From: Thermoplasmatota archaeon
GTDB taxonomy: Archaea > Thermoplasmatota > Penumbrarchaeia > Penumbrarchaeales > Penumbrarchaeaceae
Length of the DNA stretch: 64,000 nucleotides
Direction of reading: 5' to 3'
NCBI GenBank assembly: GCA_049472195.1
Contig: JBLIRG010000002.1
Coordinates: 5,184 to 69,183 of the forward strand
This document shows positions 7,376-51,860 of this stretch, piece by piece. The stretch's first letter is position 1. Each line of letters opens with the position of its first letter. Made by a program: the position numbers and the translations under genes. Under the pieces are notes generated by a model. That model made no database searches. It was not told the DNA's origin and saw only the letters and a list, made by a program, of their open reading frames with translations.

Positions 7376-7377
7376 AA

Positions 7378-7418
7378 ATAAAAAAAATAAAAGCGCCGGA
7401 ATATTTCACCGACGCTTT
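7378..7418 (-). terminator. Hairpin plus U-tract terminator after FG-GAP paralog 1
   Basis: On the minus strand, aaagcgtcgg pairs with ccggcgcttt (one U-G), followed by a T-rich run (A-tract at 7376-7392 on the + strand). Confidence 0.65.
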
Positions 7419-7433
7419 CACACGGCCGTTTAC

Positions 7434-10400
7434 CTACAGCTGTTTCTTCGTTCCGCAGAGCGGGCACTCGACCTGGGCTGCTCCCGGAGGTACTTCGACG
7501 GACGAACCGCAGAGATCGCACAGGATTGTCGTACCAGCTGATTCGGCATTCCCCGGGAGGTTCGGGGTTGCGGCCAGGTCCTCCGGTTTCGGTATCTTAC
7601 CGGGAACGGATCCTGCCGGAGCCGGTGCTTTTGCGGGAGCCGGAGCGGGCGCGGGGGCCGGTTCGGGCTGGACCGGTTTCGCCGGTTCCTCAGTTTCTTC
7701 AGGCTCGGTCTTTTCCCTCTTCTTCTCTTTCTCGACCCTTCCCCGGGGGACAACCTGCTGGGCCGATACGGGAGGCAGCGAGAGACCCATTTCCTTGACC
7801 GAGGGCAGAAGCTCCGGTTCAATTCCGGTAAGCGCCTCGTACCTCTGCACCATGCTTGCTTCCCTGGTCACATTCCTTGTAACCCTGTTCTTCTCCAAGG
7901 TCGACCTCTTCTTGAGCACGATCATCACCGCAACGATGAGTATCAGTATGGCAAGGACAACTATCCAGACCATGAACCCGAAGTAGGTGGAATATCCCGT
8001 TTCGTCCTCATCATCGATGATGAGCGGATTCAGTGGGTCCGCATCGAGATAATCGTTCATGCCGTCCTGATCCGTGTCGGCGATCTTCGGATTCGTTCCA
8101 AGAGAGAGCTCCTCTTGATCCGTCAGTTCATCTCCGTCGTCGTCAAGGTCCTCTCCATCCGGCAGACCGTCCCCGTCGGTGTCTATCTCGCTCGGGTGTA
8201 TCTTCACGTAGAAGGATATCGAGTCCGTGATGGTGAACCAGCCGTCCGTGACATAGAGGGTGATCACGTGCACGCCCTGTCCTAGGCTACTTGCCTCCAC
8301 CTCGAAATCGGCCTCTTCGCTCAGTATCGTCTTGTTCGCGAGAACCCACTTGAACTGGAGATTATCCAGATCAGGATCGATGGAATCAGATCCCTCGAAC
8401 GAGATCTTCTGCTGTGTGTCGTACACCTCGTGCATCTCGGGTGCGGATATCGAGGCCAACGGGGGATTGTTGACTTCCTTGTATACTATGTTGATCGGGA
8501 AGTCGTCGGAGACGACGAAACCGTTTCCGGCAATGTCCTTTACCCTCCATCTGACATAGTTGGTGGATCCGGGTTCGAACAGAAGTTCAGTCGATGATGC
8601 CAGGATGGTATCTGAATCATCCGTGAGACCCGCAGATATCCAGCCGCCGTAGTTGGATATGCCGTCTCGGGATACGGAATACTGTATGGTCGATGCGTCG
8701 ACTCCCGAGAGGTCCAGTCCCTGATCCTCGATGATTATGGTGGCGGTGATCCTGCTGTCCTCCTGGGGCTCCGGATCGGGAGTCGGATCCGAGAATGTGG
8801 GTGCCTGAATATCCACCCATGCATTGGCAGGATTCCGGCTGATCGCTTCCTTCTCGAAATCCGGCCGGCTCTCCTCGGCTTTCTCCCTCGCCATGTTGTC
8901 GGTGAGGTTTACCGTGTCCCTGTAGTGTATATACAGATCCTCGACCTTCTGATCCACATCGATGACCTTCGTGGTCCCGCGGTTTCCCGCCTCGTCGGCT
9001 ACCGACCACCATATGAAGTTCTCGGTTCCCTCAGAAAGCTGGACGGGAACCGATAAGGTGTAAACGTAGTTTTCACCTCTGTCAAGTGACAGGATCGTAT
9101 ACAGCGCCCTGACGCCGTCGTTCTCCCACATCTCCTCGGTAGGTTCGCCGTTCATGTTGTCGGTTACCAGATATTTCAAGGTGGATAGGTCCAGCATCGG
9201 GCTGTTATCGCCGACGACCAGATCGCTTATGGAAACCCTGAGCTCCACCTCCTTGGAGTTGAACCATATGTTACCTGTATAGGAGGGATAGTGATTGAAC
9301 AGTGTCAGGTCCTCCCTGTCGATAACGATGGACTTGATACCCCTCCTTCCGGGATTTCCTGCCTCGTCAATGCCCCATATCTGGATGGTATAGACTCCGC
9401 TCTCCCCGAGGGTCAGTTCCGTGAACCTGTCCTCGGTGTCGCCGGTTACCATGAAGGAGCCGGGGCCCCTGACCTGGTATTTGTAACCGATGACGCCTAC
9501 CTGGGTGTCGAAGGCAGGATCCCAGGAGATCCATACCTGGTTGTCGTTGTCCCACCTGCCCTCGGGATCATCGATGGAATCGGCGTGGAACTTCAGGTTC
9601 TGTGGCGCAAACGGTCCATCGAAATCGAGGCTGACGTAGAATCCGGGAATATTGGATACGGACGTGGCGTGCAGCTCGTACTCGGGATAGAGTATCTGTT
9701 CCACCCACAGCCGGAATATGCCCGAATCGACATTTGTCGGTATTCTGATATCTATCTCCAATCCGGCGCTGGATCTGTTCTCGAACACCCTGAGGTAGTT
9801 GTCCTTGACCCTCACGAAGAACTTGTCGTTTCCGGGAGATACGTCCGTTTCCTCGTATACCGCTCTAAGGCCTGTTATCCTCAGAGGCTCACCGCCGGAT
9901 AGGACAGCTCCTCTCTCAAGCTGGCTGTCTCCAAGCATAACCTTCATGTCGATATTATCGAACGTCAGGTCCTTCTCGACCCGAAGCATGTCCTCCCTCG
10001 TCTCCGTCTTCAAGAAGCGCCCCATAACGATGTTGAAGATCACATCGAATGGGTCCTGTGTCAGGAAATTCCTGTTGATACGGAAAGACAGGTTCAGTTC
10101 GGCATAGTGATAACCCGATGTTGTGAAGTCCGAATGTTCCGGGACCACCTCAAGGCCGTTCTCGTAACTGTCGATAATGTAATAGGTATCGTTCTGGGGC
10201 GAATAGCCGAATATGTAGCTGAGACCGGACAACTGACCCTTGAGCTTGAATTCTATGATTATTTCGGATGTCTGGTACACGGTCCATGAATTCGTGAAGT
10301 TCGTGTAGAAGGTGTATATTCCGCTTCCGATCTTGTTCGTGTCATTTCTGCCCTTTCCTCCGGCCTCGGCGCAGAGGATATTCCCCCCCTCGCCGTCTCC

Positions 10401-12188
10401 GTTGGAGATATCGAACGAAAGGACCTCCGAACTGGATGGCTGGGTCAGGAACAGATATGCCGCTCCCCGGTAATATTGGCTGGATTCGTAAGGATATCCG
10501 TAGGCGCCGACAAGTATATCGGCCACCCCGTCGTTGTTTATGTCGCCTGATCCGAAATTATCGTAGGCGTAATAGCCCAGATAATTATAGGTATAATAAC
10601 CCTGAACCGTCCAGCTCATATCGCTCCACGAATAACTGCTTCCCCATTGAGAAGCACTCATTCCATAGAACAGTCCGACTGTTCCCGCATAGTTCTGGTT
10701 CCTTCCGTTTGGTACATTATACGCACCCAGCAGTATGTCGTCAATTCCGTCACCGTCGAAATCGTCGATGTGGGATTGGCACATGTACGAACTGCTTCTG
10801 GGTCCTTTGATCTTGGCAGTGGAAATGCTGTTCAGATTGCAGTAATATCCGCCGTAGGGATATGAATTGTGAAATGTGTCCTTGTACTCCGAAACATCTG
10901 ACTTCCCCCAGATGATATTTGCCGTCCCTGTATAGGAATCGGAAGATGCCCTGTCCATGATTACAAGATCATCGAAACCGTCGCCGTTGAGATCCCCCAT
11001 GGAAGGATTGTAACCGGTATAGGCGGATGATTCGCGCTTGGTGAACATCATGTAATCTCCCTGGCGGGCCAGCATGTCATAGTGCCCTCCCCACTGCATC
11101 CATTCCGATCTCGTTCTTCCCTCGATCAGGTAGGTGGCTCCTGCGTAGGTATACCGCGAGGATGTTGTGTAGTACAGGTAGGTATAGTAACCCGCACCTA
11201 TGACAAGGTCCGTTCTTCCGTCTCCGTTGAAATCCCCGGAATCGAAGGCGTCTCCGTTTCCGTATCCCATTCTGGTGTACATGTAACCGCTGTTGCCGCA
11301 CGGGGCCCATGCTTTGATCCTGAGGTAGCCGTCACCGACGGGATCCTTGTTATTGCAGTTGATGGATCCTCCGGTGGCCTTCCATTCATTCTGGGTCCTC
11401 CCCCAGAAAACAAATGATAGTCCGGTCCAGTTGTACCTTACCCGCCAGCTGAGACCGCCCCAGTTTATATTCACGTAATACGGATATGAGTATTGCTGAC
11501 ACCAATAAGGGGCGGTTACCAGCAGATCACCTTTTCCGTCATCATCGATGTCCTCGATTCCCACATTGTAACCAAAGTAAGCATATCCTCCTCCGTACGC
11601 TCCGCGTTCACCAAGCAATTTGACATCGGGTGTCGTGTAGGATGCGCTGGTCCATTCCTCCCTTCCGAAATACAGATATGCCTCCCCGATGTAGCTGTTT
11701 GCATAATAGCTTCCGATGAGAATATCATCGATCCCGTCGCCGTCCACATCTCCCACCGCGACTGTTCCACCGGCATACCTGGAGCCGGTAGGTTTCAACG
11801 TGACATCGGCGTCCTTCTCGTCAAGGTTGGATCCGGTATTGGTCATGCCGAAGTATATCCTGACCTCTCCGCTGTAGCTCGAAGCGCCCCTGGCGCCGAC
11901 GATTATATCATTGTAACCGTCGCCGTTGACGTCCCCGATCTCGCACGCGGATCCTGTATAATCGTAATTTGTTGTGGAGGTGAACATCTGATCAGGTTCA
12001 TCCCCGTTCCACAAATTGACCGTGCCGGTCAATCGACCGTTGTCGTTGTTCAAAGCAACTTGTTCATCATTCGAAATCTCGTCCTCCTCGGAACTAACGT
12101 TCAATGTTGCCAATCCCGATATCATCAGAATGACAACGACAAGTCCCGCAAGGATGCCGGATAACGTGTAACGTAACCCTGGTTTCAA
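7434..12188 (-). CDS. Integrin-alpha-like surface receptor, paralog 1: 7 FG-GAP repeats, Ig/Fn3 stalk, TSP3-like repeats, TM, Pro-rich tail and Zn ribbon
   Basis: Seven DxDxDG blades (GDVNGDG, GDVDGDG, EDIDDDG, GDFNGDG, GDLNGDG, DDFDGDG, GDINNDG). DTDGDGLPDGEDLDDDGD repeat and TM FMVWIVVLAILILIVAVMIV. Ends with CDLCG..ECPLCG. TTG start with GGAGGTGA SD at 12193-12200. Confidence 0.88.
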   Translation of the reverse strand: MKPGLRYTLSGILAGLVVVILMISGLATLNVSSEEDEISNDEQVALNNDNGRLTGTVNLWNGDEPDQMFTSTTNYDYTGSACEIGDVNGDGYNDIIVGARGASSYSGEVRIYFGMTNTGSNLDEKDADVTLKPTGSRYAGGTVAVGDVDGDGIDDILIGSYYANSYIGEAYLYFGREEWTSASYTTPDVKLLGERGAYGGGYAYFGYNVGIEDIDDDGKGDLLVTAPYWCQQYSYPYYVNINWGGLSWRVRYNWTGLSFVFWGRTQNEWKATGGSINCNNKDPVGDGYLRIKAWAPCGNSGYMYTRMGYGNGDAFDSGDFNGDGRTDLVIGAGYYTYLYYTTSSRYTYAGATYLIEGRTRSEWMQWGGHYDMLARQGDYMMFTKRESSAYTGYNPSMGDLNGDGFDDLVIMDRASSDSYTGTANIIWGKSDVSEYKDTFHNSYPYGGYYCNLNSISTAKIKGPRSSSYMCQSHIDDFDGDGIDDILLGAYNVPNGRNQNYAGTVGLFYGMSASQWGSSYSWSDMSWTVQGYYTYNYLGYYAYDNFGSGDINNDGVADILVGAYGYPYESSQYYRGAAYLFLTQPSSSEVLSFDISNGDGEGGNILCAEAGGKGRNDTNKIGSGIYTFYTNFTNSWTVYQTSEIIIEFKLKGQLSGLSYIFGYSPQNDTYYIIDSYENGLEVVPEHSDFTTSGYHYAELNLSFRINRNFLTQDPFDVIFNIVMGRFLKTETREDMLRVEKDLTFDNIDMKVMLGDSQLERGAVLSGGEPLRITGLRAVYEETDVSPGNDKFFVRVKDNYLRVFENRSSAGLEIDIRIPTNVDSGIFRLWVEQILYPEYELHATSVSNIPGFYVSLDFDGPFAPQNLKFHADSIDDPEGRWDNDNQVWISWDPAFDTQVGVIGYKYQVRGPGSFMVTGDTEDRFTELTLGESGVYTIQIWGIDEAGNPGRRGIKSIVIDREDLTLFNHYPSYTGNIWFNSKEVELRVSISDLVVGDNSPMLDLSTLKYLVTDNMNGEPTEEMWENDGVRALYTILSLDRGENYVYTLSVPVQLSEGTENFIWWSVADEAGNRGTTKVIDVDQKVEDLYIHYRDTVNLTDNMAREKAEESRPDFEKEAISRNPANAWVDIQAPTFSDPTPDPEPQEDSRITATIIIEDQGLDLSGVDASTIQYSVSRDGISNYGGWISAGLTDDSDTILASSTELLFEPGSTNYVRWRVKDIAGNGFVVSDDFPINIVYKEVNNPPLASISAPEMHEVYDTQQKISFEGSDSIDPDLDNLQFKWVLANKTILSEEADFEVEASSLGQGVHVITLYVTDGWFTITDSISFYVKIHPSEIDTDGDGLPDGEDLDDDGDELTDQEELSLGTNPKIADTDQDGMNDYLDADPLNPLIIDDEDETGYSTYFGFMVWIVVLAILILIVAVMIVLKKRSTLEKNRVTRNVTREASMVQRYEALTGIEPELLPSVKEMGLSLPPVSAQQVVPRGRVEKEKKREKTEPEETEEPAKPVQPEPAPAPAPAPAKAPAPAGSVPGKIPKPEDLAATPNLPGNAESAGTTILCDLCGSSVEVPPGAAQVECPLCGTKKQL

Positions 12189-12254
12189 CTATTCACCTCC
12201 ATTCGGATTCTGAATTCAAAAAGAAAGCGCCTTACTCTCTTTCAATAAAAATCT

Positions 12255-12310
12255 AAGTATAATGGTATATATAAGTTATGTCGCAAATTATTCTTATTAT
12301 ATATAATTTT
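12255..12310 (-). promoter_or_regulatory. AT-rich putative archaeal promoter (TATA-like TTATATATA) upstream of paralog 1
   Basis: TTATATATA-like boxes on the minus strand within the AT-rich intergenic region. Confidence 0.4.
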
Positions 12311-12326
12311 GTCAAATTTCAACTTT

Positions 12327-12785
12327 TTACATAAGAGAGAGGATGTCGGTTTTGAATTTTATGATCCTATGCTCGCATCGAATAATGTCCGCATGCCCCT
12401 CCACGCCGAGCAGGAGCCAGTAAGCATCATCCCCGAAATCGTATATGGTGCGTCTGAAATCCTGATATACGAAAAAATTCAGATCCCCCTCGTTGAACAC
12501 GCTCTCGTCTGTAACGTTCGCCCGGTGGAAGAACGGGTTCAATCTGTATCGGAGTTCCTCCTGGTCTTCCCTGGACATGTCCACTGTCCTGAAGAATTCC
12601 TCGTTCATGTTGTGCTGGTAAAGCCTGATAAGATTTGCATAGAATGCCCCGGTGACGTAGTTCACGGCATCAACTACCAGGGGGCCGTAGTGATGTGTCG
12701 ATGATCTAATCTTCCGTTCCGTCATATCGATCAATCTGCACAGGTTGTCGTAAAACTCGTTTGAGGATGATTCATCCACTGCCAT
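12327..12785 (-). CDS. Hypothetical protein, 152 aa, between the two tandem FG-GAP genes
   Basis: ATG preceded by GGGTGGAG, with genome-like codon usage. No family recognised. Confidence 0.7.
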   Translation of the reverse strand: MAVDESSSNEFYDNLCRLIDMTERKIRSSTHHYGPLVVDAVNYVTGAFYANLIRLYQHNMNEEFFRTVDMSREDQEELRYRLNPFFHRANVTDESVFNEGDLNFFVYQDFRRTIYDFGDDAYWLLLGVEGHADIIRCEHRIIKFKTDILSLM

Positions 12786-12890
12786 TTCTCCACCCTGATC
12801 GATCGAAAGGCCACCGTCGGGAAGTTGAATGGAAATAACGGTAGTTAAGCTCTTTTATCATCGCTGTAACCATTACATTATATGCAAAAT

Positions 12891-12924
12891 AAAAAAAAAG
12901 GCGCTGGAAGCGTCTTCCAGCGCC
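12891..12924 (-). terminator. Perfect 11-bp hairpin plus U9 terminator after FG-GAP paralog 2
   Basis: ggcgctggaag (12900-12910), loop cgt, cttccagcgcc (12914-12924). A9 at 12891-12899 gives the U-tract on the minus strand. Confidence 0.8.
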
Positions 12925-12940
12925 GGATGCAATTCTTTCC

Positions 12941-15900
12941 TCACAGGTTCTTCTTCTCACCGCAGAGCGGGCACTCTACCTGGGATACGCCCGGCAGAAC
13001 CTCAATGGAGGATCCGCAGAGGTCGCATGTGGTGGTGGAGGCTCCCGTGTCAGCTGCACCGGAAGAACCGGGAAGGTTCGGCGTCGCAGTGAGGTCCTCG
13101 GGTTTCGGTACCTGACCGGGGACTTTTCCCGCCGGGGCGGGCGCCCTCCCGGGAGCGGGTGCCGGTTTGGGTGCCGGAGCGGGTTTGGGCACTGTCGGGG
13201 ACGGCTCAGGCTCCGCGGTTTTTACAGGTTCCTCTTCCTTCTTGGGTTCCTTGATGTCATGAAGCTTCTTTGCTTTACCCCGTGGTAGGACCTGTTGAGC
13301 GGCGATCGGAGGCAGGGATACTCCCATGTCCTTTACGGAGGGAAGGAGCTCGGCTTCGATGCCGGTGAGCGCTTCATACCTCTGGACGACCTCCGATTCC
13401 CTGGCGACGGATCTCGTGATCCTATTCTTCTCGACCGTGGACCTCTTCTTGAGAACCACCATCACAGCGACCAGAAGTATCAGGATTGCCAGGACAACCA
13501 CCCAGATCATGAAGGAATAGTAGGTGGAATACCCTTCATCCTTCTCCTTCTCGAAGACCAGGGGATTGAGCGGTTCGGGATCGAGATAGTCATCAATACC
13601 GTCCTGATCCGTGTCCTTTAGTTTCGGATTGGTTCCCATGGCGAGCTCCTCGAGATCAGACAATCTGTCGTTGTCATCATCGAGATCCTCGCCATCCGGC
13701 AGGCCGTCCCCGTCGGTATCGACCTCGTCCGGATGGATCTTCACGTAAAGCGATACCGAGTCTGTGATCGTGAACCATCCGTCGGTAACATACAGGGTGA
13801 TGACATGGACGCCCTCTCCGAGCCTGGCGGCCGGTATCTCGAAATCGGCCTTCTCGCTGAGGATCGTCTTGTTCGCCAGGACCCACTTGAACTGCAGATT
13901 ATCCAGGTCCGGATCGGTGGAATCCGATCCTTCGAAGGATATGGTCTGCTTAGTGTCGAACACATCCTGCATTTCGGGTGAGGATATCACTGCTATCGGG
14001 GGATTGTTCAGCGGAATGAACTCGATTATTATCGGATAGTCGTCGGAGACAACGAATCCGTTTCCGGCAACATCCTTTGCCCTCCACCTGATATAATTGG
14101 TGGAACCGGGTTCGAACAGAAGAACCGTGGTCGAGGCAAGGACCTGATCGGCATCGTCGCTCAATCCGGCGGAGATCCAGCCTCCGTAATTGGAAATTCC
14201 GTCCCGCGATATTGAGTACTGTATCGTCGATACATCGACCCCGGAGAGATCCACTCCCTTATCCCGGATGATCACCGTTGCGGTGATCCTGTTGGTTTCC
14301 TGGGGTTCCGGGTCCGGTGTGGGATCGGAGAACATCGGGGCCTGAATATCGACCCAGGCGTTGGCAGGATTCTCACTCATCGCTTTCTTTTCCAGGGTGG
14401 CCCTGCTCTCCTCGGCCTTCTCCCTTGCCATGTTATCCGTGAGGTTCATGGTGTCCCTGTAATATACGTAGAGATCCTCGACCTCGGCATCAACGTCCAG
14501 TATCCGTGTGATCCCCTCGTTTCCGGCCTCGTCCTTCACTGACCACCAGATGTAGTTCTCCTTTCCTTCCTTCAGCTGAACCGGGGCCGATATGGTGTAT
14601 ATGTATCTCTCCCCGCGGTCGATCGACATGAGCGTATACTGAGCTTTGACCCCGTCCGCTTCCCACATCTCCTCGGTTGGTTCACCGGTCATCTGATCCG
14701 TCACGAGGTATCTCAGGGTCGAGAGGTCGAGCATCGGGCCGTTGTCACCGACCATAAGATCGCTTATCGAAGCCCTTAGGTCGACCTCCTTGGAGTTGAA
14801 CCACATATCACCCATGTATGTGGGATAGTGGTTGACGATGGAGAGATCCTCATGGTCGATCACGATGGATTTGATGGCCCTGATTCCAGGATTGTTCGCC
14901 TCGTCCATACCCCAGATCTGGATGGTGTAGACACCGCTGCCACCGAGGGTGAGTTCTGTGAATCGGTCAACGGTATCACCCGTCACGAGGAAGGAGCCGG
15001 GACCCCTGAGCTGGTATTTGTACCCGATCACATCCACCTGGGTATCGAAGGCAGGATCCCAGGAGATCCAGACCTGGTTGTCGTTATCCCATCTTCCCTC
15101 GGGATCGTCGATGGAATCGGCGTGGAACTTCAGGTTCTGGGGTGCTGACGGTCCTTCGAAATCCATGGTCACGTAGAAGCCTGGGACCGCTCCTTTTTCC
15201 TCTGCGTAAACCCCGTATTCGGGAGATATCATGATATTCACCCAGAACCGAAGGGTTCCCGAATCGACGTTGGTCGGAAGTATCATATTGATATCCATGC
15301 CCGCGGAGGAGTGGTTCTCGAAGACCCTCATGTAGTTATCGGTCACCCTGATGTAGTATTTGTCGTTGGACGGAGATACCTCCGTGTCCTCGTACACCAC
15401 CCTGAGTCCGGAGATCACCAGAGGATCTCCACCGGGTATGAAATCCCCTCTATTCACGGTTCTTCCTCCCTGTGTTACGGTCATGTCTATGTTGTTGAAA
15501 GTGATGTCCTTTTCCACCCTGAGCATTTCCTCTTCTACGTGGTAAACAACATCCCTGGACCGCACTATTCCGAACTTGACGTCGAAGGGATCCTGGGTCG
15601 GGAAGTTCCTGTTGATCCTGATCGAGATATTAATCTCCGCATCAAAATAGCCGTGTATCGTATAGTTGCATTTATCCTGTACCAGTTCTATGGCGTCGGC
15701 GAAATTATCTTTTATGTAGAAGGTATCGTTGATGGGATTGTATCCCATGCTGTAGGTTATTCCGGTCCATCCCCCTTTCAGAACGAACTCGAGAACGATC
15801 TCGTTTGCTTCCTTCACGGTCCACGAATCCGTATAATTCCCCCAGAACGTGTAGACGCCGTCGCCTATGGGATCCGCGCCTCCCACGCCGCCTGCTTCGG

Positions 15901-17671
15901 CGGTGAGGATGTTATTCTCCTCCCCGTCTCCGTCCTTCAGCTCGAATCCCTTGATCTCGAGGGCGGGAGGTTCTGTCAGGAACATGTAGACAGCACCGCA
16001 GTATGAAGTTGTCCCATAGGACCTGCCCTGTGCAGTAAGGACGATATCGGCTATGCTGTCATCGTTGAAATCCCCGCTGGACATGGACTGCAGGTAATAA
16101 TCACCAAGGTAACTGTATCGAGTCTCCCCCTGGACGGTCCAGTCGGCATCAGTCCATTTCAGATCCGATTGCCAATTGGCCTGTCCGTAGAACAGCCCAA
16201 CCCTTCCAGCATAGGTGTCGCTGTTATCATTGGGCATTCTGGACGGTGCAACGAGGAGATCTCCGTAACCGTCCCCGTCGAAGTCGTCGATCCAGTTGTG
16301 GGCCATGTAGCCACTGCTGGAGGTTCCGGAGATGGTCACATCCGTTACGTCTTTGATGTCGTTGTAATATCCGCCCGCGGGATAGCTGTCCCAGAATGTC
16401 GAGGTAAGGCTCGAGGTATCCGATCTTCCCCAAATGATGTAGCTCTGTCCCTCGTAATTTCCCGGCATCCGGTAAGAGCTGATGACGAGATCGTCATATC
16501 CGTCCCCGTTCAGATCTCCCAGTCTGGGATTGAATCCGGAGTAGGTGGAGCTCTCTCTCCTTGTGAAGAGCATGTAATCGCCGTTTCTGGCCATCATGTC
16601 GTAATGACCGCCCCACTGCATCCACTCCGATCTGGATCTTCCTGGAACTAGCCATGTCGCTCCGGTGTAGGAATACGATGAATAGGTAGAATAGTAAACA
16701 TAGCAGTAATAACCGGTCCCAAAGAGGATATCATTATAACCGTCACCGTCAAAATCACCGGAATGTGTGCTCTGGCCCCCGTAATATCCGAGTCTAGCGT
16801 ATCTGTAGGAACCGCCGGGCATCCAGCCCTTGATCCTTACGTACTGGTCCCCCGTGTAATCCTTGTTGTCGCAGTTTATGGTCCCGCCGATCGCGGTCCA
16901 TTCCGTTCTGGACCTACCCCAGAATATGAATGCTAGACCCGTGTAATTGTAATAGATATAGTTAGTGGTCCCTTTGAAATATTCGTTTCCGTTGACATAT
17001 TCATACCAGTAGGGCTCGGTTGCGATTATATCATCGTATCCGTCGTTATCCAGATCGTCCACCCAGACGTTGTCGCCGAAATACGATGAGGAGGACTGAC
17101 CGGTCTCACCGATGAATTTCAGATCGGGCGCCGTGTATGATTTTCCTTTGACCCAGTCCGTTCTTCCGTAGAACACGAAGGCTTCACCCTTGTAGCTGGA
17201 TCCGCCGTAGTTGCCCAGAGCGATATCGTCGATACCGTCGCCGTCCACGTCCCCGATGCCTATGGTGTCTCCAAGTCCGACGCCGCCGCTTGGTTTCAAG
17301 GTGACGTCGGCATCCTTGTATGACAGTGATCCTCCTGCCGTTATCATGCCGAAGTACACGTAGACCTCGTTGATCCCGTCGGCTCCCGTGACCATATCGT
17401 CGTATCCGTCCCCGTTCACGTCACCAACCGCAATTCCGGCGCCCATCCAGGCGCTTGATGTCGTGTGGTACATCATCTGGTCGGCGCTGCTCTCCCAGAG
17501 CTTCACATCTCCGGAAAGCCTGTTGGTTACGGGAAGCGGCTGTTCGTCGCCCGATCCGCCCTCGGTGACCGGTACGAACTCGATCACCGTCAGGCTGCTC
17601 AGAAGGAATAATGCCGCTATGAGAAACGGAATCATTCCCCGCTTTAAGGTTGTCTTGGATAAGCTTGTCAT
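12941..17671 (-). CDS. Integrin-alpha-like surface receptor, paralog 2 (same architecture as 7434-12188)
   Basis: Seven FG-GAP blades, a stalk colinear with paralog 1, TM FMIWVVVLAILILLVAVMVV, RYEALTGI and CDLCG..ECPLCG. ATG 17671 has a GGGGTGA SD. Confidence 0.88.
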   Translation of the reverse strand: MTSLSKTTLKRGMIPFLIAALFLLSSLTVIEFVPVTEGGSGDEQPLPVTNRLSGDVKLWESSADQMMYHTTSSAWMGAGIAVGDVNGDGYDDMVTGADGINEVYVYFGMITAGGSLSYKDADVTLKPSGGVGLGDTIGIGDVDGDGIDDIALGNYGGSSYKGEAFVFYGRTDWVKGKSYTAPDLKFIGETGQSSSSYFGDNVWVDDLDNDGYDDIIATEPYWYEYVNGNEYFKGTTNYIYYNYTGLAFIFWGRSRTEWTAIGGTINCDNKDYTGDQYVRIKGWMPGGSYRYARLGYYGGQSTHSGDFDGDGYNDILFGTGYYCYVYYSTYSSYSYTGATWLVPGRSRSEWMQWGGHYDMMARNGDYMLFTRRESSTYSGFNPRLGDLNGDGYDDLVISSYRMPGNYEGQSYIIWGRSDTSSLTSTFWDSYPAGGYYNDIKDVTDVTISGTSSSGYMAHNWIDDFDGDGYGDLLVAPSRMPNDNSDTYAGRVGLFYGQANWQSDLKWTDADWTVQGETRYSYLGDYYLQSMSSGDFNDDSIADIVLTAQGRSYGTTSYCGAVYMFLTEPPALEIKGFELKDGDGEENNILTAEAGGVGGADPIGDGVYTFWGNYTDSWTVKEANEIVLEFVLKGGWTGITYSMGYNPINDTFYIKDNFADAIELVQDKCNYTIHGYFDAEINISIRINRNFPTQDPFDVKFGIVRSRDVVYHVEEEMLRVEKDITFNNIDMTVTQGGRTVNRGDFIPGGDPLVISGLRVVYEDTEVSPSNDKYYIRVTDNYMRVFENHSSAGMDINMILPTNVDSGTLRFWVNIMISPEYGVYAEEKGAVPGFYVTMDFEGPSAPQNLKFHADSIDDPEGRWDNDNQVWISWDPAFDTQVDVIGYKYQLRGPGSFLVTGDTVDRFTELTLGGSGVYTIQIWGMDEANNPGIRAIKSIVIDHEDLSIVNHYPTYMGDMWFNSKEVDLRASISDLMVGDNGPMLDLSTLRYLVTDQMTGEPTEEMWEADGVKAQYTLMSIDRGERYIYTISAPVQLKEGKENYIWWSVKDEAGNEGITRILDVDAEVEDLYVYYRDTMNLTDNMAREKAEESRATLEKKAMSENPANAWVDIQAPMFSDPTPDPEPQETNRITATVIIRDKGVDLSGVDVSTIQYSISRDGISNYGGWISAGLSDDADQVLASTTVLLFEPGSTNYIRWRAKDVAGNGFVVSDDYPIIIEFIPLNNPPIAVISSPEMQDVFDTKQTISFEGSDSTDPDLDNLQFKWVLANKTILSEKADFEIPAARLGEGVHVITLYVTDGWFTITDSVSLYVKIHPDEVDTDGDGLPDGEDLDDDNDRLSDLEELAMGTNPKLKDTDQDGIDDYLDPEPLNPLVFEKEKDEGYSTYYSFMIWVVVLAILILLVAVMVVLKKRSTVEKNRITRSVARESEVVQRYEALTGIEAELLPSVKDMGVSLPPIAAQQVLPRGKAKKLHDIKEPKKEEEPVKTAEPEPSPTVPKPAPAPKPAPAPGRAPAPAGKVPGQVPKPEDLTATPNLPGSSGAADTGASTTTCDLCGSSIEVLPGVSQVECPLCGEKKNL

Positions 17672-17858
17672 TATGTTCACCCCTATATACTCTATGCTGC
17701 TCCATTTGAGCATCAAAATTTTACAAATACAGGCCCCATTTTATAATATATAAAAGGCACAGTTGGATTTTTTCATTTTATATAAAGTTTACATGTTTAT
17801 ATGGCTGTTGTGACCGATTTCATCCAATTTGAATGGATGAATTCATCCTCAATTTTTA

Positions 17859-46737: not shown

Positions 46738-47042
46738 ATCATCGGAGATTTTATTGAAATAAGAAGTCTCATAATTAGAAGGTGGATGGAGTTTTCATCC
46801 GGTTCATCGAAGATAAAACAAGTTTTCCTCAGAGATGATGTTATCCTTGTCCAGTTCAATAATTTGATGGACCCCCGGACCGAATTTTTCTTTCAAAGGA
46901 CTTTTTTAAAAAGGCGAGGTATAAATACATGGAAAAAACCATGCCAATACCCATTAATAAAGCTCGAGGACTGGAATCAAATATTGGTAATATTGTGGAT
47001 TAACCGATCAATGGACCGGTTAGCATGTCTGGGGTGTTCAAA

Positions 47043-50000
47043 ATGGCGAAATCAATGAGTTTTCAAAAGAAGGTAAAATTTGTAATGGTGCCGGTTCTGA
47101 TGGCGATCATTCTTGCCGTTCCCGCATTTCAGGCGGGATCGGGGATTGATGAGGATCCCGTTCCGACCCGGGATGATGATGAGGATAACGAGATGTTCAC
47201 CGGATCCGTTGACCTGGGCGCGATGTCCATGGAGCAGTACATCAGCGGTGAGGAGAAATACGACAACTTCGGGTATTCCATGGCCAAGGGAGATATCAAC
47301 GGCGATGATCTCGAGGATATCATTATCGGTGCTCCCGGTTTTAACGGGTCCAGGGGCGGCGTTTTCGTGTTTTACGGCGGATCCAAGGGCAGGGAGATGT
47401 CCTACGAGGATGCCGATGTCGTCATCGACCATCATGAAGATTACACCTATTTCGGCCTGAATGTCGAGGTGGGCGACGTGGACGGCGACGGGAACCTGGA
47501 CATTCTTGCCTCGGGTTACACGGACGATCAGCTCGGCCCGGGACCTCTTGTCGAGTATCCCAAGGTATTTCTGTTCCTTGGAAAGAACGGGTGGGCCCAC
47601 AACATCTCCACGGCGGAAGCCGATACGGTGTATATAGGCAGCGATCCGACAACCTTTTTCGGCTACAAGATCGGGCTCGGCGACGTCACCAGCGACGGCT
47701 ACGACGATGTGGTGGTCACCGAGATAGAGGCGGGAGCCGTTGCCGGATCGATGGGCAGCGGTATTGATTACGATACGAATATCGCCCTTGATGCCACGGC
47801 ATCACACAGCGGAGGGGGATCAGGAGTCTGGGGCCCCGATCGTCTGAACAACGGTGATTACACGGGTGTTTACAACGACTGCTGGACTTCAGGAGGCGGA
47901 TGGGTTGAATTGGTATGGGAGGACGAGGTCCAGGTCGCTGCGATGACCGTACTTTACACCAGGTACCGCACTCTCTCAGCATCCTATTGCCTGGATAGAT
48001 GTGATGTCAAATGGTGGGACGGATCCGCCTGGCAGCTGGATCACCAATACCGCACCAGTGCGGAAACCGGAGGTGTAGCCGGTACCGTCCATGACAACTA
48101 TATCAATATGACCGAACCCAGGAAGACCACCAGGGTGAGGCTGGAAAATATGAATTCCGGGTCAAACATCATGATCCAGGAGTGGCTCGTGTTCGGGGGC
48201 GGCGGATCGAAAGCATATGTTGGATCACCCAACGGCACGATGTATATATTCGAAGGCGGTCCGATCCTTCAGAGCTCATACAATGTATCTCTGGGCGCCA
48301 ATCCCGGCGGATACGATCACTTCATCAACAATACCGCCAACAACTCCGGTTTCGCAACCACGGATCTGGATCTCGGCGACATCAACGGCGACGGCTACGA
48401 GGATATCCTGATCGGCTCCGGCGGCATTCAGTACGAGGGTATCGAGTCCGGTTCGGTCCAGGTGATCCTCGGAGGAGCGAACCTTCCCAAGATGATAGAT
48501 CTGTACACCTATTCCCATCTTAACATAACGTCCTTCCCCGGATACAGGTTGTCGTATGTGACCCATGCCGACATCACCGGAGACGGGATCCAGGACCTGA
48601 TCGTTGTAGCCCCCGGCGCTTTCTTCGACAAGACTGGCGGCATATTCGCGTATAAAGGTAAGAAGGTCATGCCCACGGGCCAGATGACCATTCTCAATTA
48701 CGATTTCATGATCCGGGGCCCCCGTGAGGATTGGGAGTTCAATGTGGAGGGAGCTGGTGATCTCGACGGTGACGGTAAGGAGGATCTCTGGATCCGATCC
48801 GGCAACGGCGAGAAGACCGGCGGCGGCGGAATCTATTACCTTCTGTATATGAAGGAGGTTGCGAAGCTTCCGGATCCGACCGTGTACAATATGAAGTTCG
48901 AGACGCCTACGTTCAAGGTTGTTGCTCCCAAGGGCAAGAGCAGTTTCGGATCGTTTTTGCGCAATGGTCTCATGACCCTTGATTTCAACAACGACGATCT
49001 TGAGGAGATCGTGCTGTGTGATTACGACGGCAGTTTCCAGGGTAAACCCACCGAGTCCGGTCTTGTGTCGGTTTATTATCCCCAGGTGAGCGAGATATTG
49101 GTAGAGAAGTTCGAGCTGACCGATCCGGACGGCATCGATGAATACATTGTTGGAGCGGAGAAGGTCTATCATTTCCAGGGTTCCGTTTTGAATACCTGGT
49201 CTTACGGTGATATAAAATCGATGGACCTCAAGTTCCACATGCACGGGACCGGTTACGACGGCCAGTCTTTGGACATATCCTGGAATATGGAGATGATGAA
49301 TCTTGTGGAGCGCAATGATCTTGAGGATTTCATCAACATCGAATCCAGCAGTGTTGTTCAGACGAGCAATTACGGTTTGGATTTCTATCTTAATTTGAGT
49401 TTCAATTCCCATTATCCTCTTGAGGATGCGCTTGATGTCGGTTTGTATGTTGACAGCCACAAGGGAGATCTTTTGATGTCGAAGGTTCTTCCTGGTCTTT
49501 TCCGTGTGGAGGTTGACGTTGATTTCTTCGGTGAGCTTACGGTGAGTGCCGAGAAGAACGGCGTTCTTGCCCGCGGTTCCTATGTTCAGCCCAATGAGAA
49601 GATCGTTGTGACGGGTATTCGTGCTGTTTATGAGGGTACACTGGTGTCTCCTCCGAATACATATTTCTCGATAAAGATGGAGGACAATCTGGGCAACATC
49701 TTCCTGAATCAGAGTTCATCCGGTCTGGATATCTACTTCACGTATCGAACCCAGCCTATGGCGGGCCGGGAGGAGGTGAAGATCTCTATTGTTGATCTCA
49801 AGCAGGGTGTTGATGACATGTCTGGTCAGCCTGATTTCTATTATATTGTCGACACCGATCTTCCCCCTGCTCCGGAGGGTTTGACCGTTCATGCTGATTC
49901 TGATGTTGATCCTTTGATGGGTTACGATAACGATCCCGATGTTTGGGTGTTGTGGAATCCGACCCAGGATGCGACTTCCGAGATAATCGGTTACATGTAT

Positions 50001-51860
50001 AGTATGGAGGATGCGGGTGGTACGGATATGGGTACATTCACCCAGAATACTTTTGTTGAGGTTCATGATCTTCAGGAGGGCTGGAACACGATCTATGTCT
50101 GGAGCGTTGATTCTGCCCAGAACTACGGTCTTTCGTCCGATGTTTCCGTTTATTATGACACGGAGATGCCCATGTTCGCTTTGTCGAATCCCAAGCCTGG
50201 TTCCTGGATAAACACCAATCTGATCAATTACGAGATGTTCATCTTCGACAACGGTCAGTCTGGTGTACGCGGCAGTTCGATCGAGTATACGGTTTCCAAT
50301 GACGGCGGCAAGACGTATGGTGCCTGGGAGCCGACCAATATTCGCAGGAACGGTGATCAGATCACCGTCAAGCTGTTCATCAATTTCCGTGAGGGCGAGG
50401 ACAATTTCATCAAATGGCGTGCGATGGACGTTGCCGGGAACGGTTATGCCGTGTCTGATCCTTACCAGATCAAGGTTGATACGGTTCCGATAACTTTCCG
50501 TTCCGCCACTCCTTCCGATGCCCAGGATGTGAATTACGTGAAGCTTGGCATCACTCTTGGTGACAGCGGTTCGGGTGTTGATGCCGGTACGATTCAGTAT
50601 CAGTTGTCTCATGACGGTGTATCCAATTACGGTCCCTGGGAGTCCATGGGTCTGTCTGGTTCCTACGAGAGCATCACTGTTGAGACCCCTCCGATCTATT
50701 TTGAGAAGGACACTCAGAATTACGTGAAGTGGCGGGCCAAGGATATTGCCGGCAACGGTTTCACCTATTCGACTGATATTCTGATTGATATCAATCCCGA
50801 GGTAGTGAATGGTGATCCTGTTCCGATCATCTCGAATCCCGTGAGCGGTGATACGATATTGGAGAGTTCCAGGATCGTGTTTGATGGTTCGGAGAGCCTT
50901 GATCCCGATGGTGATGAGGTGAAGTATTTGTGGTATTCCGACAAGGATGGTTATCTTGGCACTGATCCTGTTATTGAGAGGTATCTTTCTGCCAACAGCC
51001 ATCGTATCACTCTTCATCTTGATGACGGTCTTTCGAATCGTTCCATCACGGTTGACATCAATGTTCTTCGTGATTACAATGCGATTGACACCGACAAGGA
51101 CGGCATTCCCGATTTCATTGATGATGATGACGACAATGATGGTTTGTTGGATTCTCAGGAGGATCTGAATAACAACGGTGTGTTTGATTATCTTCTCAAT
51201 GAGACGGATATGCGTAAGTGGGATACCGATGGTGATGGTGCGAGTGATTTCCATGATGCTCTTCCTCTTGATCCCGATAATTATGTGAAGGAGAATGAGG
51301 ATGAGATTCCGTGGTGGGTTCTTTTGATCATCGTTCTTGCGATCATCGTGTCCATAGTGATCATCATTCTGTTTGCGGTGTTGAAGATGCGCAGTGATCG
51401 TGAGCGTATTGAGGCTGCTCGTTCTCTTAGGCGTAAGAGGAAGTCCTTGAAGCGTTATGAGGTTCTGACGGGTATTCCGACGAATGATCTTCCTGCCATT
51501 GAGGCGATTCAGTGGGCTTTGCCAGGTGTGATCAGTGAGGCTTCGGAGTTTGTGTTGGAGCCTGCCCCCACTGATGATCTTCTTCCTCCCAAGCCTGAGG
51601 AGGAGTTTGTTCCTCCTGCTGATATGGGTGGCAAGCCTGATCTTGAGGATCTTGAGGTTCCCGCTCCTGATGTGGATGTTCCTTTTGCTGCTGATTCTGT
51701 TCATCAGGAGCCTCCATCGGAGCCTGTGTCTGGTGAGTCTGTTCCGTCTCCGTCTGGTGCCCGTGTGATCAACTGTTCTCTTTGCGGTTCTGAGGTTCCT
51801 GTTGATGACGGTGCGTCCACTGCTGAGTGTCCTCTTTGCGGTGAGATAATCAATCTTTGA
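47043..51860 (+). CDS. Integrin-alpha-like surface receptor, paralog 3: 7 FG-GAP repeats with an inserted discoidin-like domain, Ig/Fn3 stalk, PKD-like unit, TSP3-like repeats, TM, acidic Pro-rich tail and Zn ribbon
   Basis: Blades GDINGDD, GDVDGDG, GDVTSDG, GDINGDG, ADITGDG, GDLDGDG and LDFNNDD. Stalk motif HADSDVD...DND. RYEVLTGI and CSLCG..ECPLCG. GGGGTG SD before ATG 47043. Confidence 0.88.
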   Translation: MAKSMSFQKKVKFVMVPVLMAIILAVPAFQAGSGIDEDPVPTRDDDEDNEMFTGSVDLGAMSMEQYISGEEKYDNFGYSMAKGDINGDDLEDIIIGAPGFNGSRGGVFVFYGGSKGREMSYEDADVVIDHHEDYTYFGLNVEVGDVDGDGNLDILASGYTDDQLGPGPLVEYPKVFLFLGKNGWAHNISTAEADTVYIGSDPTTFFGYKIGLGDVTSDGYDDVVVTEIEAGAVAGSMGSGIDYDTNIALDATASHSGGGSGVWGPDRLNNGDYTGVYNDCWTSGGGWVELVWEDEVQVAAMTVLYTRYRTLSASYCLDRCDVKWWDGSAWQLDHQYRTSAETGGVAGTVHDNYINMTEPRKTTRVRLENMNSGSNIMIQEWLVFGGGGSKAYVGSPNGTMYIFEGGPILQSSYNVSLGANPGGYDHFINNTANNSGFATTDLDLGDINGDGYEDILIGSGGIQYEGIESGSVQVILGGANLPKMIDLYTYSHLNITSFPGYRLSYVTHADITGDGIQDLIVVAPGAFFDKTGGIFAYKGKKVMPTGQMTILNYDFMIRGPREDWEFNVEGAGDLDGDGKEDLWIRSGNGEKTGGGGIYYLLYMKEVAKLPDPTVYNMKFETPTFKVVAPKGKSSFGSFLRNGLMTLDFNNDDLEEIVLCDYDGSFQGKPTESGLVSVYYPQVSEILVEKFELTDPDGIDEYIVGAEKVYHFQGSVLNTWSYGDIKSMDLKFHMHGTGYDGQSLDISWNMEMMNLVERNDLEDFINIESSSVVQTSNYGLDFYLNLSFNSHYPLEDALDVGLYVDSHKGDLLMSKVLPGLFRVEVDVDFFGELTVSAEKNGVLARGSYVQPNEKIVVTGIRAVYEGTLVSPPNTYFSIKMEDNLGNIFLNQSSSGLDIYFTYRTQPMAGREEVKISIVDLKQGVDDMSGQPDFYYIVDTDLPPAPEGLTVHADSDVDPLMGYDNDPDVWVLWNPTQDATSEIIGYMYSMEDAGGTDMGTFTQNTFVEVHDLQEGWNTIYVWSVDSAQNYGLSSDVSVYYDTEMPMFALSNPKPGSWINTNLINYEMFIFDNGQSGVRGSSIEYTVSNDGGKTYGAWEPTNIRRNGDQITVKLFINFREGEDNFIKWRAMDVAGNGYAVSDPYQIKVDTVPITFRSATPSDAQDVNYVKLGITLGDSGSGVDAGTIQYQLSHDGVSNYGPWESMGLSGSYESITVETPPIYFEKDTQNYVKWRAKDIAGNGFTYSTDILIDINPEVVNGDPVPIISNPVSGDTILESSRIVFDGSESLDPDGDEVKYLWYSDKDGYLGTDPVIERYLSANSHRITLHLDDGLSNRSITVDINVLRDYNAIDTDKDGIPDFIDDDDDNDGLLDSQEDLNNNGVFDYLLNETDMRKWDTDGDGASDFHDALPLDPDNYVKENEDEIPWWVLLIIVLAIIVSIVIIILFAVLKMRSDRERIEAARSLRRKRKSLKRYEVLTGIPTNDLPAIEAIQWALPGVISEASEFVLEPAPTDDLLPPKPEEEFVPPADMGGKPDLEDLEVPAPDVDVPFAADSVHQEPPSEPVSGESVPSPSGARVINCSLCGSEVPVDDGASTAECPLCGEIINL

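What the first reader, a model, noticed from the sequence alone, without database searches (positions are those of the whole stretch)
47760..48205. Discoidin/F5-8C-like domain inserted inside the FG-GAP propeller
Between blades 3 and 4 of paralog 3 there is a ~150-aa insert (NIALDATASHS...DRLNNGD...CW...WVELVW...TTRVRL...IQEWLVFG) with a galactose-binding/discoidin-like pattern. Paralogs 1 and 2 have only an aromatic loop at that site (seen). Metazoan integrins similarly insert a ligand-binding alphaI domain into their propeller (established), so this looks like a convergent inserted-domain strategy (inference).
Basis: partly seen in the sequence, partly recalled or inferred. Interest (0 to 1): 0.66.

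Follow-up and report, generated by a model that had tools for sequence, protein, structure and literature searches.

The report
Swappable lectin-like cassette inside archaeal propeller
A large surface protein of an uncultured Thermoplasmatota archaeon carries a sugar-binding-type (discoidin/CBM32-like) domain spliced into one loop of its integrin-like seven-bladed propeller, and related archaea have nothing, or four other modules, at exactly the same loop, so the loop acts as a slot for exchangeable binding heads.

Summary
In ORF 47025..51860 (+), 1611 aa, about 170 residues (aa 234-403, nt 47724-48233) lie between strand 2 and strand 3 of blade 3 of a seven-bladed FG-GAP propeller. Fourteen insert-less orthologs have 9-15 residues there. 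The insert is inside blade 3, not between blades 3 and 4.

The folded part (aa 247-390) gives a confident AlphaFold2 model (pLDDT 92, pTM 0.88). Its best structural matches are CBM32 modules, factor VIII C2 and APC10, which share the discoidin/galactose-binding-like jelly roll. By sequence it is a rare, unclassified branch near Pfam DUF7402 and F5_F8_type_C. The full head models as a propeller closest to integrin alpha propellers, with the insert on two disordered Gly-rich linkers.

New here: the same loop carries five alternative modules in related genomes. Three are discoidin-like subtypes, one is a CBM96/DNRLRE domain and one is an unidentified ~240-aa module. All insert-bearing scaffolds form one clade. 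Two tandem genes in one genome are 96-100% identical in DNA on both sides but unalignable across the cassette.

Best reading: an exchangeable, probably glycan-binding head on the face opposite the propeller's Ca2+ sites, where the integrin alphaI domain also sits. It is analogous to alphaI and not homologous to it. Glycan binding is inferred, not shown.

The parts
47025..51860 (+). Whole gene (1611-aa ORF; a database copy of the protein starts at the Met at 47043 and has 1605 aa). Layout: signal or anchor segment, FG-GAP propeller with insert, stalk, TM helix (aa 1430-1453), cytoplasmic tail ending in a CxxC...CxxC zinc ribbon.
47073..47135 (+). N-terminal hydrophobic segment (aa 17-37), a likely signal peptide, which would place the propeller outside the cell.
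   Evidence: read directly from the sequence; inference
47196..47723 (+). First part of the propeller (aa 58-233): N-terminal closing strand, blades 1 and 2, and strands 1-2 of blade 3. Ca motifs at aa 90, 151 and 220.
   Evidence: Pfam FG-GAP E 5e-22; motifs; AF2 strands E3-6 to E171-177
47724..47762 (+). N-side linker IEAGAVAGSMGSG (aa 234-246). Model residues 181-188 have pLDDT below 50. Orthologs have poly-Gly here.
47763..48194 (+). Inserted discoidin/CBM32-like beta-sandwich, 'type A' (aa 247-390). Conserved loop motifs: SHSGGGSGVWGP, RLNNGD, NDCWT, YTRYR and NIMIQEW.
   Evidence: AF2 pLDDT 92; Foldseek CBM32, FVIII C2, APC10; alignments A1 and A4; profile hits
48195..48233 (+). C-side linker GGGGSKAYVGSPN (aa 391-403). 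Model residues 337-342 have pLDDT below 50.
48234..49124 (+). Rest of the propeller (aa 404-700): strands 3-4 of blade 3 and blades 4-7. Ca motifs at aa 452, 516, 579 and 653.
10389..12041 (-). Propeller of paralog 1. An aromatic loop occupies the equivalent 2-3 loop of blade 3; there is no inserted domain.
15917..17539 (-). Propeller of paralog 2. An aromatic loop occupies the equivalent site; there is no inserted domain.

Best explanation
The gene encodes a membrane-anchored archaeal surface receptor or adhesin. Its outermost part is a calcium-binding, seven-bladed FG-GAP propeller. An independently folding discoidin/CBM32-like beta-sandwich of about 145 aa is spliced, on two flexible Gly-rich linkers, into the loop between strands 2 and 3 of blade 3. 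That loop lies on the face opposite the calcium sites. This is the face integrins use for ligand binding and for mounting the alphaI domain.

The module most likely serves as the ligand-binding head, probably for a glycan. The propeller, stalk, membrane helix and zinc-ribbon tail form a constant chassis.

The loop is a cassette slot. Within this archaeal family it is empty, or holds one of three discoidin-like subtypes, a CBM96/DNRLRE carbohydrate-binding module, or a fifth unidentified module. Cassettes and scaffolds have separate histories, through recombination or gene conversion between paralogs. Changing the cassette would therefore change specificity without touching the chassis.

Shown: the insert, its boundaries, its fold class, the intact propeller in the model, the alternative cassettes, and the decoupling of scaffold and cassette. 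Inferred: extracellular location, glycan binding, and functional exchange of specificity.
For: Anatomy:
- The insert is bounded by strand 2 (ends aa 233) and strand 3 (starts aa 404) of blade 3. Fourteen orthologs have only 9-15 residues there.

Fold:
- Domain model: pLDDT 92, pTM 0.88. Foldseek best matches are CBM32 modules, factor VIII C2 and APC10, with TM about 0.7.
- Transitive profile hits go to DUF7402, F5_F8_type_C and the accessory domains of beta-galactosidase 8q2h.

Intact propeller:
- Head model: pLDDT 85.8, pTM 0.74, with only the two linkers disordered.
- Top structural matches are integrin alpha propellers, E 2e-12.

Face:
- The calcium loops are the 1-2 loops, which contact the 3-4 loops (PMC3192720). 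By beta-meander topology, the 2-3 loop is on the opposite face, together with the inter-blade 4-1 loops. The alphaI domain sits in one of those, between blades 2 and 3 (PMC10659397 and PMC3192720).

Autonomy of the module:
- The same module, with 44 invariant residues, stands directly after the signal peptide of P0008.
- It lies inside giant multidomain proteins (P0007, P0009, L007, L009, L013, L015).
- A type-B copy is itself the head on the same stalk in G004 (L008).

Cassette slot:
- Types A, B, C, D and E occupy the same loop.
- Type D is CBM96 (PF24517, 58 bits) and DNRLRE (NF033679, 84 bits).

Separate histories of scaffold and cassette:
- All 10 insert-bearing scaffolds form one clade (99/99), with cassette types mixed inside it.
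- G020 genes a and b: scaffold 95.7% identical, insert 47%.
- This window's gene against G020_a: scaffold 50%, insert 65%.
- G020_b against G014_c381: scaffold 52%, insert 72%.
- DNA of the G020 tandem pair is 96-100% identical on both sides and about 42-56% identical across about 450 nt.

Glycan lead:
- The alternative cassette is a curated CBM family.
- Distant relatives of the module co-occur with pectin-lyase-like NosD, MAM, GEVED, PKD and T9SS sorting domains.
Against: - No binding data exist.
- This sequence passes no curated family threshold (DUF7402 13.6-13.9 bits against a cut-off of 27; no NCBIfam hit).
- The discoidin fold also binds lipids, collagen and peptide degrons, so the fold alone does not prove a glycan ligand.
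- Model coordinates could not be read. The closure of the propeller, the adjacency of the insert's two ends and the orientation of its apex rest on confidence values, secondary structure and topology, not on measured distances.
- Gene neighbours are unrelated housekeeping genes and give no functional clue.
- The G020 'a' copy is split by a frameshift. It may be a pseudogene or a sequencing error.
Confidence: 0.72

Rival explanations
1. The inserted beta-sandwich binds something other than a glycan, such as a protein, a lipid or membrane, or a mineral surface. Discoidin domains do this in factor V/VIII (phospholipid), DDR (collagen) and APC10 (degron). The architecture and the cassette logic would be the same, with a different ligand class.
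For: Foldseek lists factor VIII C2, lactadherin C2, the CASPR2 discoidin domain and APC10 at nearly the same scores as the CBM32 modules. The most conserved element of type A is an unusual Gly/Trp-rich loop, SHSGGGSGVWGP, that was not matched to any known sugar site. In Bap1 the inserted beta-prism does not bind sugar and instead carries an adhesion loop (10.64898/2026.08.03.742583).
Against: The best structural matches are bacterial CBM32 modules. The only significant sequence-profile match in PDB is to accessory domains of a glycosidase. The alternative cassette at the same slot is a curated carbohydrate-binding family, CBM96.
Confidence: 0.18
2. The insert is a regulatory lid or a structural decoration. 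It would cover the ligand-binding face of the propeller, for autoinhibition or shielding, and would not be the binding head itself.
For: It sits on the face that the paralogs decorate with Tyr/Trp-rich loops. It hangs on flexible linkers. The integrin alphaI domain likewise obstructs the ancestral pocket (PMC10659397).
Against: A lid would not need five alternative folds. It would also not need a module that is conserved at 50-68% identity, with invariant loops, in unrelated proteins where no propeller is present. In G004 the module alone replaces the propeller as the head on the same stalk.
Confidence: 0.07
3. The apparent insertion is an artefact, either a chimeric MAG assembly or a mis-joined ORF.
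For: The genome is an 86%-complete MAG of 111 contigs. Some related copies sit on short contigs.
Against: The frame is open through both junctions. The same architecture recurs in at least six other genomes and in independent metagenome proteins from NCBI, ENA, JGI and Logan. The flanks align collinearly with the insert-less orthologs.
Confidence: 0.01

Closest known systems
Integrin alphaI (alphaA) domain inserted in the alpha-subunit FG-GAP propeller (chordates)
   Same: Both have a seven-bladed, Ca2+-binding FG-GAP propeller at the tip of a stalked, single-pass membrane protein. In both, an autonomous ligand-binding domain is spliced into a loop on the face opposite the Ca2+ sites. In both lineages only some family members carry it.
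   Different: The fold is a discoidin/CBM32-like beta-sandwich, not a vWA Rossmann fold with a MIDAS site. The site is the 2-3 loop inside blade 3, not the link between blades 2 and 3. No beta subunit or internal-ligand relay is known. The slot is polymorphic, with five module types, whereas alphaI was a single acquisition. The two proteins are not homologous beyond the propeller fold (12-16% identity to integrin propellers).
Vibrio cholerae biofilm adhesins Bap1/RbmC (Ca2+-binding 8-bladed propeller with a beta-prism lectin-fold domain)
   Same: Both are prokaryotic extracellular adhesins that combine a Ca2+-binding propeller with a lectin-fold beta domain (10.64898/2026.08.03.742583). From my own knowledge of the Bap1 crystal structure, not checked here, the prism emerges from a loop of a propeller blade.
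   Different: Bap1/RbmC are bacterial and secreted and have an 8-bladed propeller and a beta-prism fold. No cassette polymorphism at the insertion site has been reported for them. This protein is archaeal, membrane-anchored and 7-bladed, and its insert is CBM32-like.
CBM32 / F5/8 type C (discoidin) domains; Pfam DUF7402 (PF24135) and F5_F8_type_C_2 (PF22633)
   Same: Same beta-sandwich fold (TM about 0.7). Shared core pattern N.A...(N/D)DG...W...W...TT..R...N...E. Distant relatives of the insert reach these Pfam models.
   Different: This sequence is below every curated threshold. The subfamily is rare, with 54 representatives at E<=1e-3 among 1.84 billion. It has its own invariant loops: SHSGGGSGVWGP, NDCWT, YTRYR and NIMIQEW.
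'Stalk with swappable heads' surface-protein family of the same archaeal lineage (earlier notes e1-5242845 and e1-5242842)
   Same: Same stalk, TM helix and zinc-ribbon tail. Module exchange is the theme in both. In G004 the type-B discoidin-like module is itself a head on that stalk.
   Different: Here the exchange is nested one level deeper. It happens inside a loop of the head domain, not at the head-stalk junction.

Membership tests
FG-GAP / integrin-alpha-type seven-bladed propeller | Repeated FG-GAP units that pass the Pfam threshold | tested here: met
   PF01839 at E 5e-22 and 77.8 bits (cut-off 22.1), five stretches.
FG-GAP / integrin-alpha-type seven-bladed propeller | Seven blades with DxDxDG-type Ca2+ loops between strands 1 and 2, and an integrin-like fold | tested here: met
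   Seven motifs. AF2 model with pLDDT 85.8 and seven strand sets. Foldseek top 50 are integrin alpha chains, best E 2e-12, TM normalised to target up to 0.60.
Integrin alphaI-domain-bearing alpha subunit | Inserted domain is a vWA fold with a MIDAS site | tested here: not met
   The insert is an all-beta jelly roll that matches CBM32 and discoidin domains.
Integrin alphaI-domain-bearing alpha subunit | Insertion lies between blades 2 and 3 | tested here: not met
   The insertion lies between strands 2 and 3 of blade 3. The alphaI position is taken from PMC10659397 and PMC3192720.
Integrin alphaI-domain-bearing alpha subunit | Heterodimer with a beta subunit (betaI domain) | not tested
CBM32 / F5_F8_type_C (discoidin) | Galactose-binding-like beta-sandwich fold | tested here: met
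   Foldseek: 2xqx_B at E 3.8e-8 with TM 0.71/0.74; 4a44 at 0.72/0.78; 2v72 at 0.71/0.79; factor VIII C2 at 0.64-0.67.
CBM32 / F5_F8_type_C (discoidin) | Sequence passes the Pfam PF00754 or PF22633 gathering score | tested here: not met
   This sequence has no hit at E<=0.01. Only 5 of 34 relatives hit PF00754 and 11 of 34 hit PF22633 at E<=0.01.
CBM32 / F5_F8_type_C (discoidin) | Demonstrated carbohydrate binding at the loop apex, and a structural Ca2+ site | not testable with these tools
   This needs coordinates and binding assays. The conserved (N/D)DG and terminal E motifs are present, but they were not mapped in three dimensions.
Pfam DUF7402 (PF24135) | Score at or above the 27-bit gathering cut-off | tested here: not met
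   This sequence scores 13.6-13.9 bits. The distant relatives scanned scored 20-25 bits, also below the cut-off. 18 of 34 aligned relatives match at E<=0.01, best E 1.1e-7.
CBM96 / DNRLRE (alternative cassette, type D, in orthologs G006_c96, G022 and G014_c78) | Passes the curated thresholds | tested here: met
   PF24517 at 58.4 bits (cut-off 26); NF033679 at 84.2 bits (cut-off 34). This applies to the ortholog cassette, not to the insert in this window.

The most novel reading that the evidence does not exclude
The strand 2-3 loop of blade 3 is a dedicated cassette-exchange site. Homologous recombination or gene conversion across near-identical scaffold flanks and Gly-rich linkers would shuffle a pool of binding modules (three discoidin-like types, CBM96/DNRLRE and an unknown fifth). 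The shuffling would occur among paralogs within a genome and possibly between genera. This would give these archaea a combinatorial, integrin-like receptor repertoire. It would be a prokaryotic, repeatedly used counterpart of the single alphaI-domain acquisition in chordates.
Probability: 0.4. Interest if true: 0.8.

Novelty: new variant of a known kind. Interest (0 to 1): 0.62.

Why it matters
Domain-in-propeller receptors are textbook for chordate integrins, where the alphaI domain was acquired once. Here an archaeal lineage appears to have reached the same design independently and turned the insertion point into a reusable slot.

The family offers natural 'before and after' pairs. These are insert-less orthologs and near-identical tandem genes that differ only in the cassette. 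Such pairs are well suited to asking how a foreign domain can be inserted into a closed beta-propeller without disturbing it, and how specificity modules are exchanged.

The work also defines a rare, unclassified discoidin-like subfamily with strikingly invariant loops, whose ligand is unknown.

For the biology of uncultured Thermoplasmatota, it points to surface receptors with tunable, probably glycan-directed specificity linked to a conserved intracellular tail.

Tried and rejected
- Single-sequence searches of the insert gave nothing significant. Pfam returned only DUF7402 at E 0.075. PDB returned YPM at E 0.28, which I rejected as chance. NCBIfam returned nothing.
- The six-sequence profile A1 against PDB gave only 4jx0 at E 0.008. 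The broader A4 profile was needed.
- Model coordinates are not exposed in the Python box. I could not measure the distance between the insert's two ends, the ring closure, or which way the apex points. Topology and a literature statement on the Ca2+ loops were used instead.
It remains unidentified.
- I looked for foreign composition in the insert. GC3 is 0.63 in the insert against 0.70-0.74 in the propeller flanks and 0.55 in the stalk. This is not distinctive, so no claim of recent transfer is made.
- Gene neighbourhood gives no functional clue. The neighbours are a permease, a molybdopterin oxidoreductase, an HTH protein, a pentapeptide-repeat protein, oligopeptidase F and pyruvate kinase.
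- Literature searches for DUF7402, for Thermoplasmatota with FG-GAP, and for domain insertion with propeller and CBM32 found no prior description of this architecture. The library covers open-access papers only.
- A look-up of earlier scan notes by sequence found no look-alike window.
Full report
WHAT IS THERE

The finding lies in ORF 47025..51860 (+), 1611 aa. A database copy of the protein starts at the Met at 47043 and has 1605 aa.

Pfam sees only FG-GAP repeats in the N-terminal 700 residues (E 5e-22). Seven DxDxDGxxD calcium motifs stand at aa 90, 151, 220, 452, 516, 579 and 653. The 232-aa gap between motifs 3 and 4 contrasts with about 61-74 aa elsewhere.

The rest of the protein is a stalk, a TM helix (aa 1430-1453) and a cytoplasmic tail ending in a CxxC...CxxC ribbon. 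Two paralogs in the window share this chassis (7434..12188 and 12941..17716, minus strand). At the equivalent place they have only a loop rich in aromatic residues, with 10-11 Tyr/Trp/Phe in 28 residues.

BOUNDARIES

Orthologs without the insert (P0065-P0067, and 14 genomic copies in total) align collinearly on both sides of the site. Strand 2 of blade 3 (VVVTE) ends at aa 233, and strand 3 (GTMYIFEGG) begins at aa 404. The 170 residues between them replace 9-15 residues in those orthologs.

The insert therefore splits blade 3 in its 2-3 loop. It does not lie between blades 3 and 4.

FOLD

An AlphaFold2 model of aa 58-700, built with 20 aligned sequences, has mean pLDDT 85.8 and pTM 0.74. It shows:
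- seven sets of blade strands;
- an N-terminal strand placed to complete blade 7;
- an all-beta insert (model residues 190-335);
- pLDDT below 50 only in the two Gly-rich linkers (model residues 181-188 and 337-342).

Its best structural matches are integrin alpha propellers: 7nwl_A at E 2e-12, and TM normalised to target up to 0.60.

A domain-only model, built with 34 aligned sequences, has pLDDT 92.0 and pTM 0.88. Its matches are:
- CBM32 modules: 2xqx_B at E 3.8e-8 with TM 0.71/0.74, and 4a44 and 2v72 with TM 0.71-0.79;
- factor VIII C2, lactadherin C2 and the CASPR2 discoidin domain;
- APC10;
- the N-domain of galactose oxidase.

This is the discoidin/galactose-binding-like jelly roll.

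By sequence the domain is hard to place. This sequence passes no curated threshold. Of its 34 aligned relatives, 18 hit DUF7402, 11 hit F5_F8_type_C_2 and 5 hit F5_F8_type_C. The profile also finds two accessory domains of beta-galactosidase 8q2h at E 3e-9.

The subfamily is rare, with 54 representatives at E<=1e-3 among 1.84 billion clusters.

WHICH FACE

In integrin-type propellers the calcium loops are the 1-2 loops, and they contact the 3-4 loops (PMC3192720). By the beta-meander, the 2-3 loop lies on the opposite face, together with the 4-1 loops that link the blades. The alphaI domain sits in the link between blades 2 and 3 (PMC10659397 and PMC3192720).

The archaeal insert is therefore on the same face as alphaI, in a different loop. 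This is a topological inference.

THE MODULE IS AUTONOMOUS AND MOBILE

The same 'type A' module has 44 invariant residues across six proteins, many of them in loops: SHSGGGSGVWGP, RLNNGD, NDCWT, YTRYR and NIMIQEW. It occurs in several unrelated settings:
- directly after the signal peptide of the unrelated 1104-aa protein P0008;
- inside the giant multidomain proteins P0007 and P0009;
- related subtypes lie inside large proteins in other genomes of the same class (L007, L009, L013, L015).

In genome G004 a type-B copy is itself the N-terminal head on the same stalk (L008).

This genome has a single copy of the domain. Nine of 61 related genomes have the domain at all. Among GTDB representative genomes, the pattern scan confirmed type A relatives only in Thermoplasmatota MAGs.

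THE LOOP IS A CASSETTE SLOT

The orthogroup is confined to the window's family plus one member in the sister family. At the same loop I found the following states.
- Empty: 14 orthologs.
- Type A: this window, G020_a and G008.
- Type B: G020_b, G013, G014_c381 and P0064.
- Type C: G014_c376 and P0021.
- Type D: G006_c96, G022 and the partial G014_c78.
- Type E: a module of about 240 aa with no family match, in G006_c82.

Types A, B and C are homologous by HMMER. Type D is a different fold family, CBM96/DNRLRE (PF24517 at 58 bits, NF033679 at 84 bits).

Several genomes carry more than one version: G020 has A and B, G014 has B, C and D, and G006 has D and E. In this data set no genome has both an insert-bearing and an insert-less copy.

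SCAFFOLD AND CASSETTE HAVE SEPARATE HISTORIES

A maximum-likelihood tree of the propeller with the insert removed puts all ten insert-bearing copies in one clade. Support is 99/99, and the clade sits among the insert-less copies. Cassette types are interleaved inside it.

Pairwise identities show the decoupling:
- G020_a against G020_b: scaffold 95.7%, insert 47%.
- This window's gene against G020_a (both type A): scaffold 50%, insert 65%.
- G020_b against G014_c381 (both type B): scaffold 52%, insert 72%.
- G014_c381 against G014_c376: scaffold 69%, insert 33%.

At DNA level the two G020 genes are 96-100% identical on both sides and about 42-56% identical across about 450 nt. They lie in tandem, about 580 nt apart, on a 430-kb contig. 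The 'a' copy is interrupted by a frameshift.

Two explanations remain open. Cassettes may be exchanged between scaffolds. Alternatively, old paralogs may keep distinct cassettes while gene conversion homogenises their scaffolds.

The insert clade spans four genera, and each of the three represented by more than one genome also contains insert-less species. This implies either lateral spread within the family or reciprocal loss of old paralogs.

HOW IT MOST LIKELY WORKS

The protein is a type I surface receptor or adhesin. The constant chassis is the propeller, stalk, TM helix and zinc-ribbon tail. It presents an exchangeable binding head, tethered by flexible linkers, on the face of the propeller opposite the Ca2+ sites.

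The ligand is most likely a glycan, for three reasons:
- the best structural matches are CBM32 modules;
- the only significant PDB sequence match is a glycosidase accessory domain;
- the alternative cassette belongs to a curated CBM family.

Paralogs without a cassette fill the same loop with Tyr/Trp-rich sequence, presumably to bind directly.

A non-glycan ligand cannot be excluded (confidence about 0.18). A lid or shield role is less likely (about 0.07). An assembly artefact is effectively excluded.

COMPARISON WITH KNOWN SYSTEMS AND NOVELTY

The design works like an alphaI-bearing integrin, but it fails the defining tests for that family: the fold, the insertion site and an unknown beta partner.

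The closest prokaryotic precedent is Bap1/RbmC of Vibrio cholerae, a Ca2+-binding propeller combined with a beta-prism lectin fold. That the prism emerges from a blade loop is from my own knowledge and was not checked here.

I found no description of a polymorphic insertion slot in an FG-GAP propeller, nor of this discoidin-like subfamily.

Verdict: a new variant of a known kind, with interest 0.62.

Noticed in passing
L037 (G006:C82), between the blade-3 and blade-4 Ca motifs: A fifth cassette of about 240 aa occupies the same loop (GGHKAGKKVLVATLGSDRTDTLISHCSSLGIEYDVYTAS...). It has no Pfam, NCBIfam or PDB sequence match. Its alternating hydrophobic pattern suggests an alpha/beta domain. If so, it would be closer in kind to the vWA-type alphaI insert. 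Similar-looking segments precede type-B modules in L013 and L015.
   Followed up: partly
L066 (G020:C9:222000-241000), ORFs 10826..14635 and 9871..10869 (minus strand): The type-A tandem copy in G020 is split into 1269-aa and 332-aa ORFs that overlap by 44 nt. This is a frameshift. It is either a real pseudogene or a long-read homopolymer error. The type-B copy downstream (4453..9291) is intact at 1612 aa.
   Followed up: partly
L008 (G004:C44): A type-B discoidin-like module sits directly after the signal peptide and is followed by the same stalk as the propeller proteins. The same module is therefore used both as a stand-alone head and as a propeller insert.
   Followed up: partly
P0007, L007, L009, L013, L015 (class-level relatives): Giant proteins of 1000 to over 2800 aa string together several module kinds, often joined by Gly-rich linkers. 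By eye these are DNRLRE/CBM96-like units, LamG-like segments, BNR/sialidase-like repeats, PKD-like units and type B or C discoidin-like modules. Together they look like a shared extracellular module toolkit in this lineage. No family scan of these proteins was run.
   Followed up: no
window 47874-47891 and 47970-48000 (aa 286, 322, 326): The insert has three cysteines (NDCWT, and YCLDRC). The first is invariant in type A and the other two are mostly conserved, so a disulfide in an extracellular archaeal domain is possible. This was not tested.
   Followed up: no
family-wide tally: In 21 genomes with a member of this orthogroup, none has both an insert-bearing and an insert-less copy, although three of the four genera that have the insert also include insert-less species. 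This suggests allelic or orthologous replacement, or lateral spread, rather than stable co-existing paralogs.
   Followed up: partly
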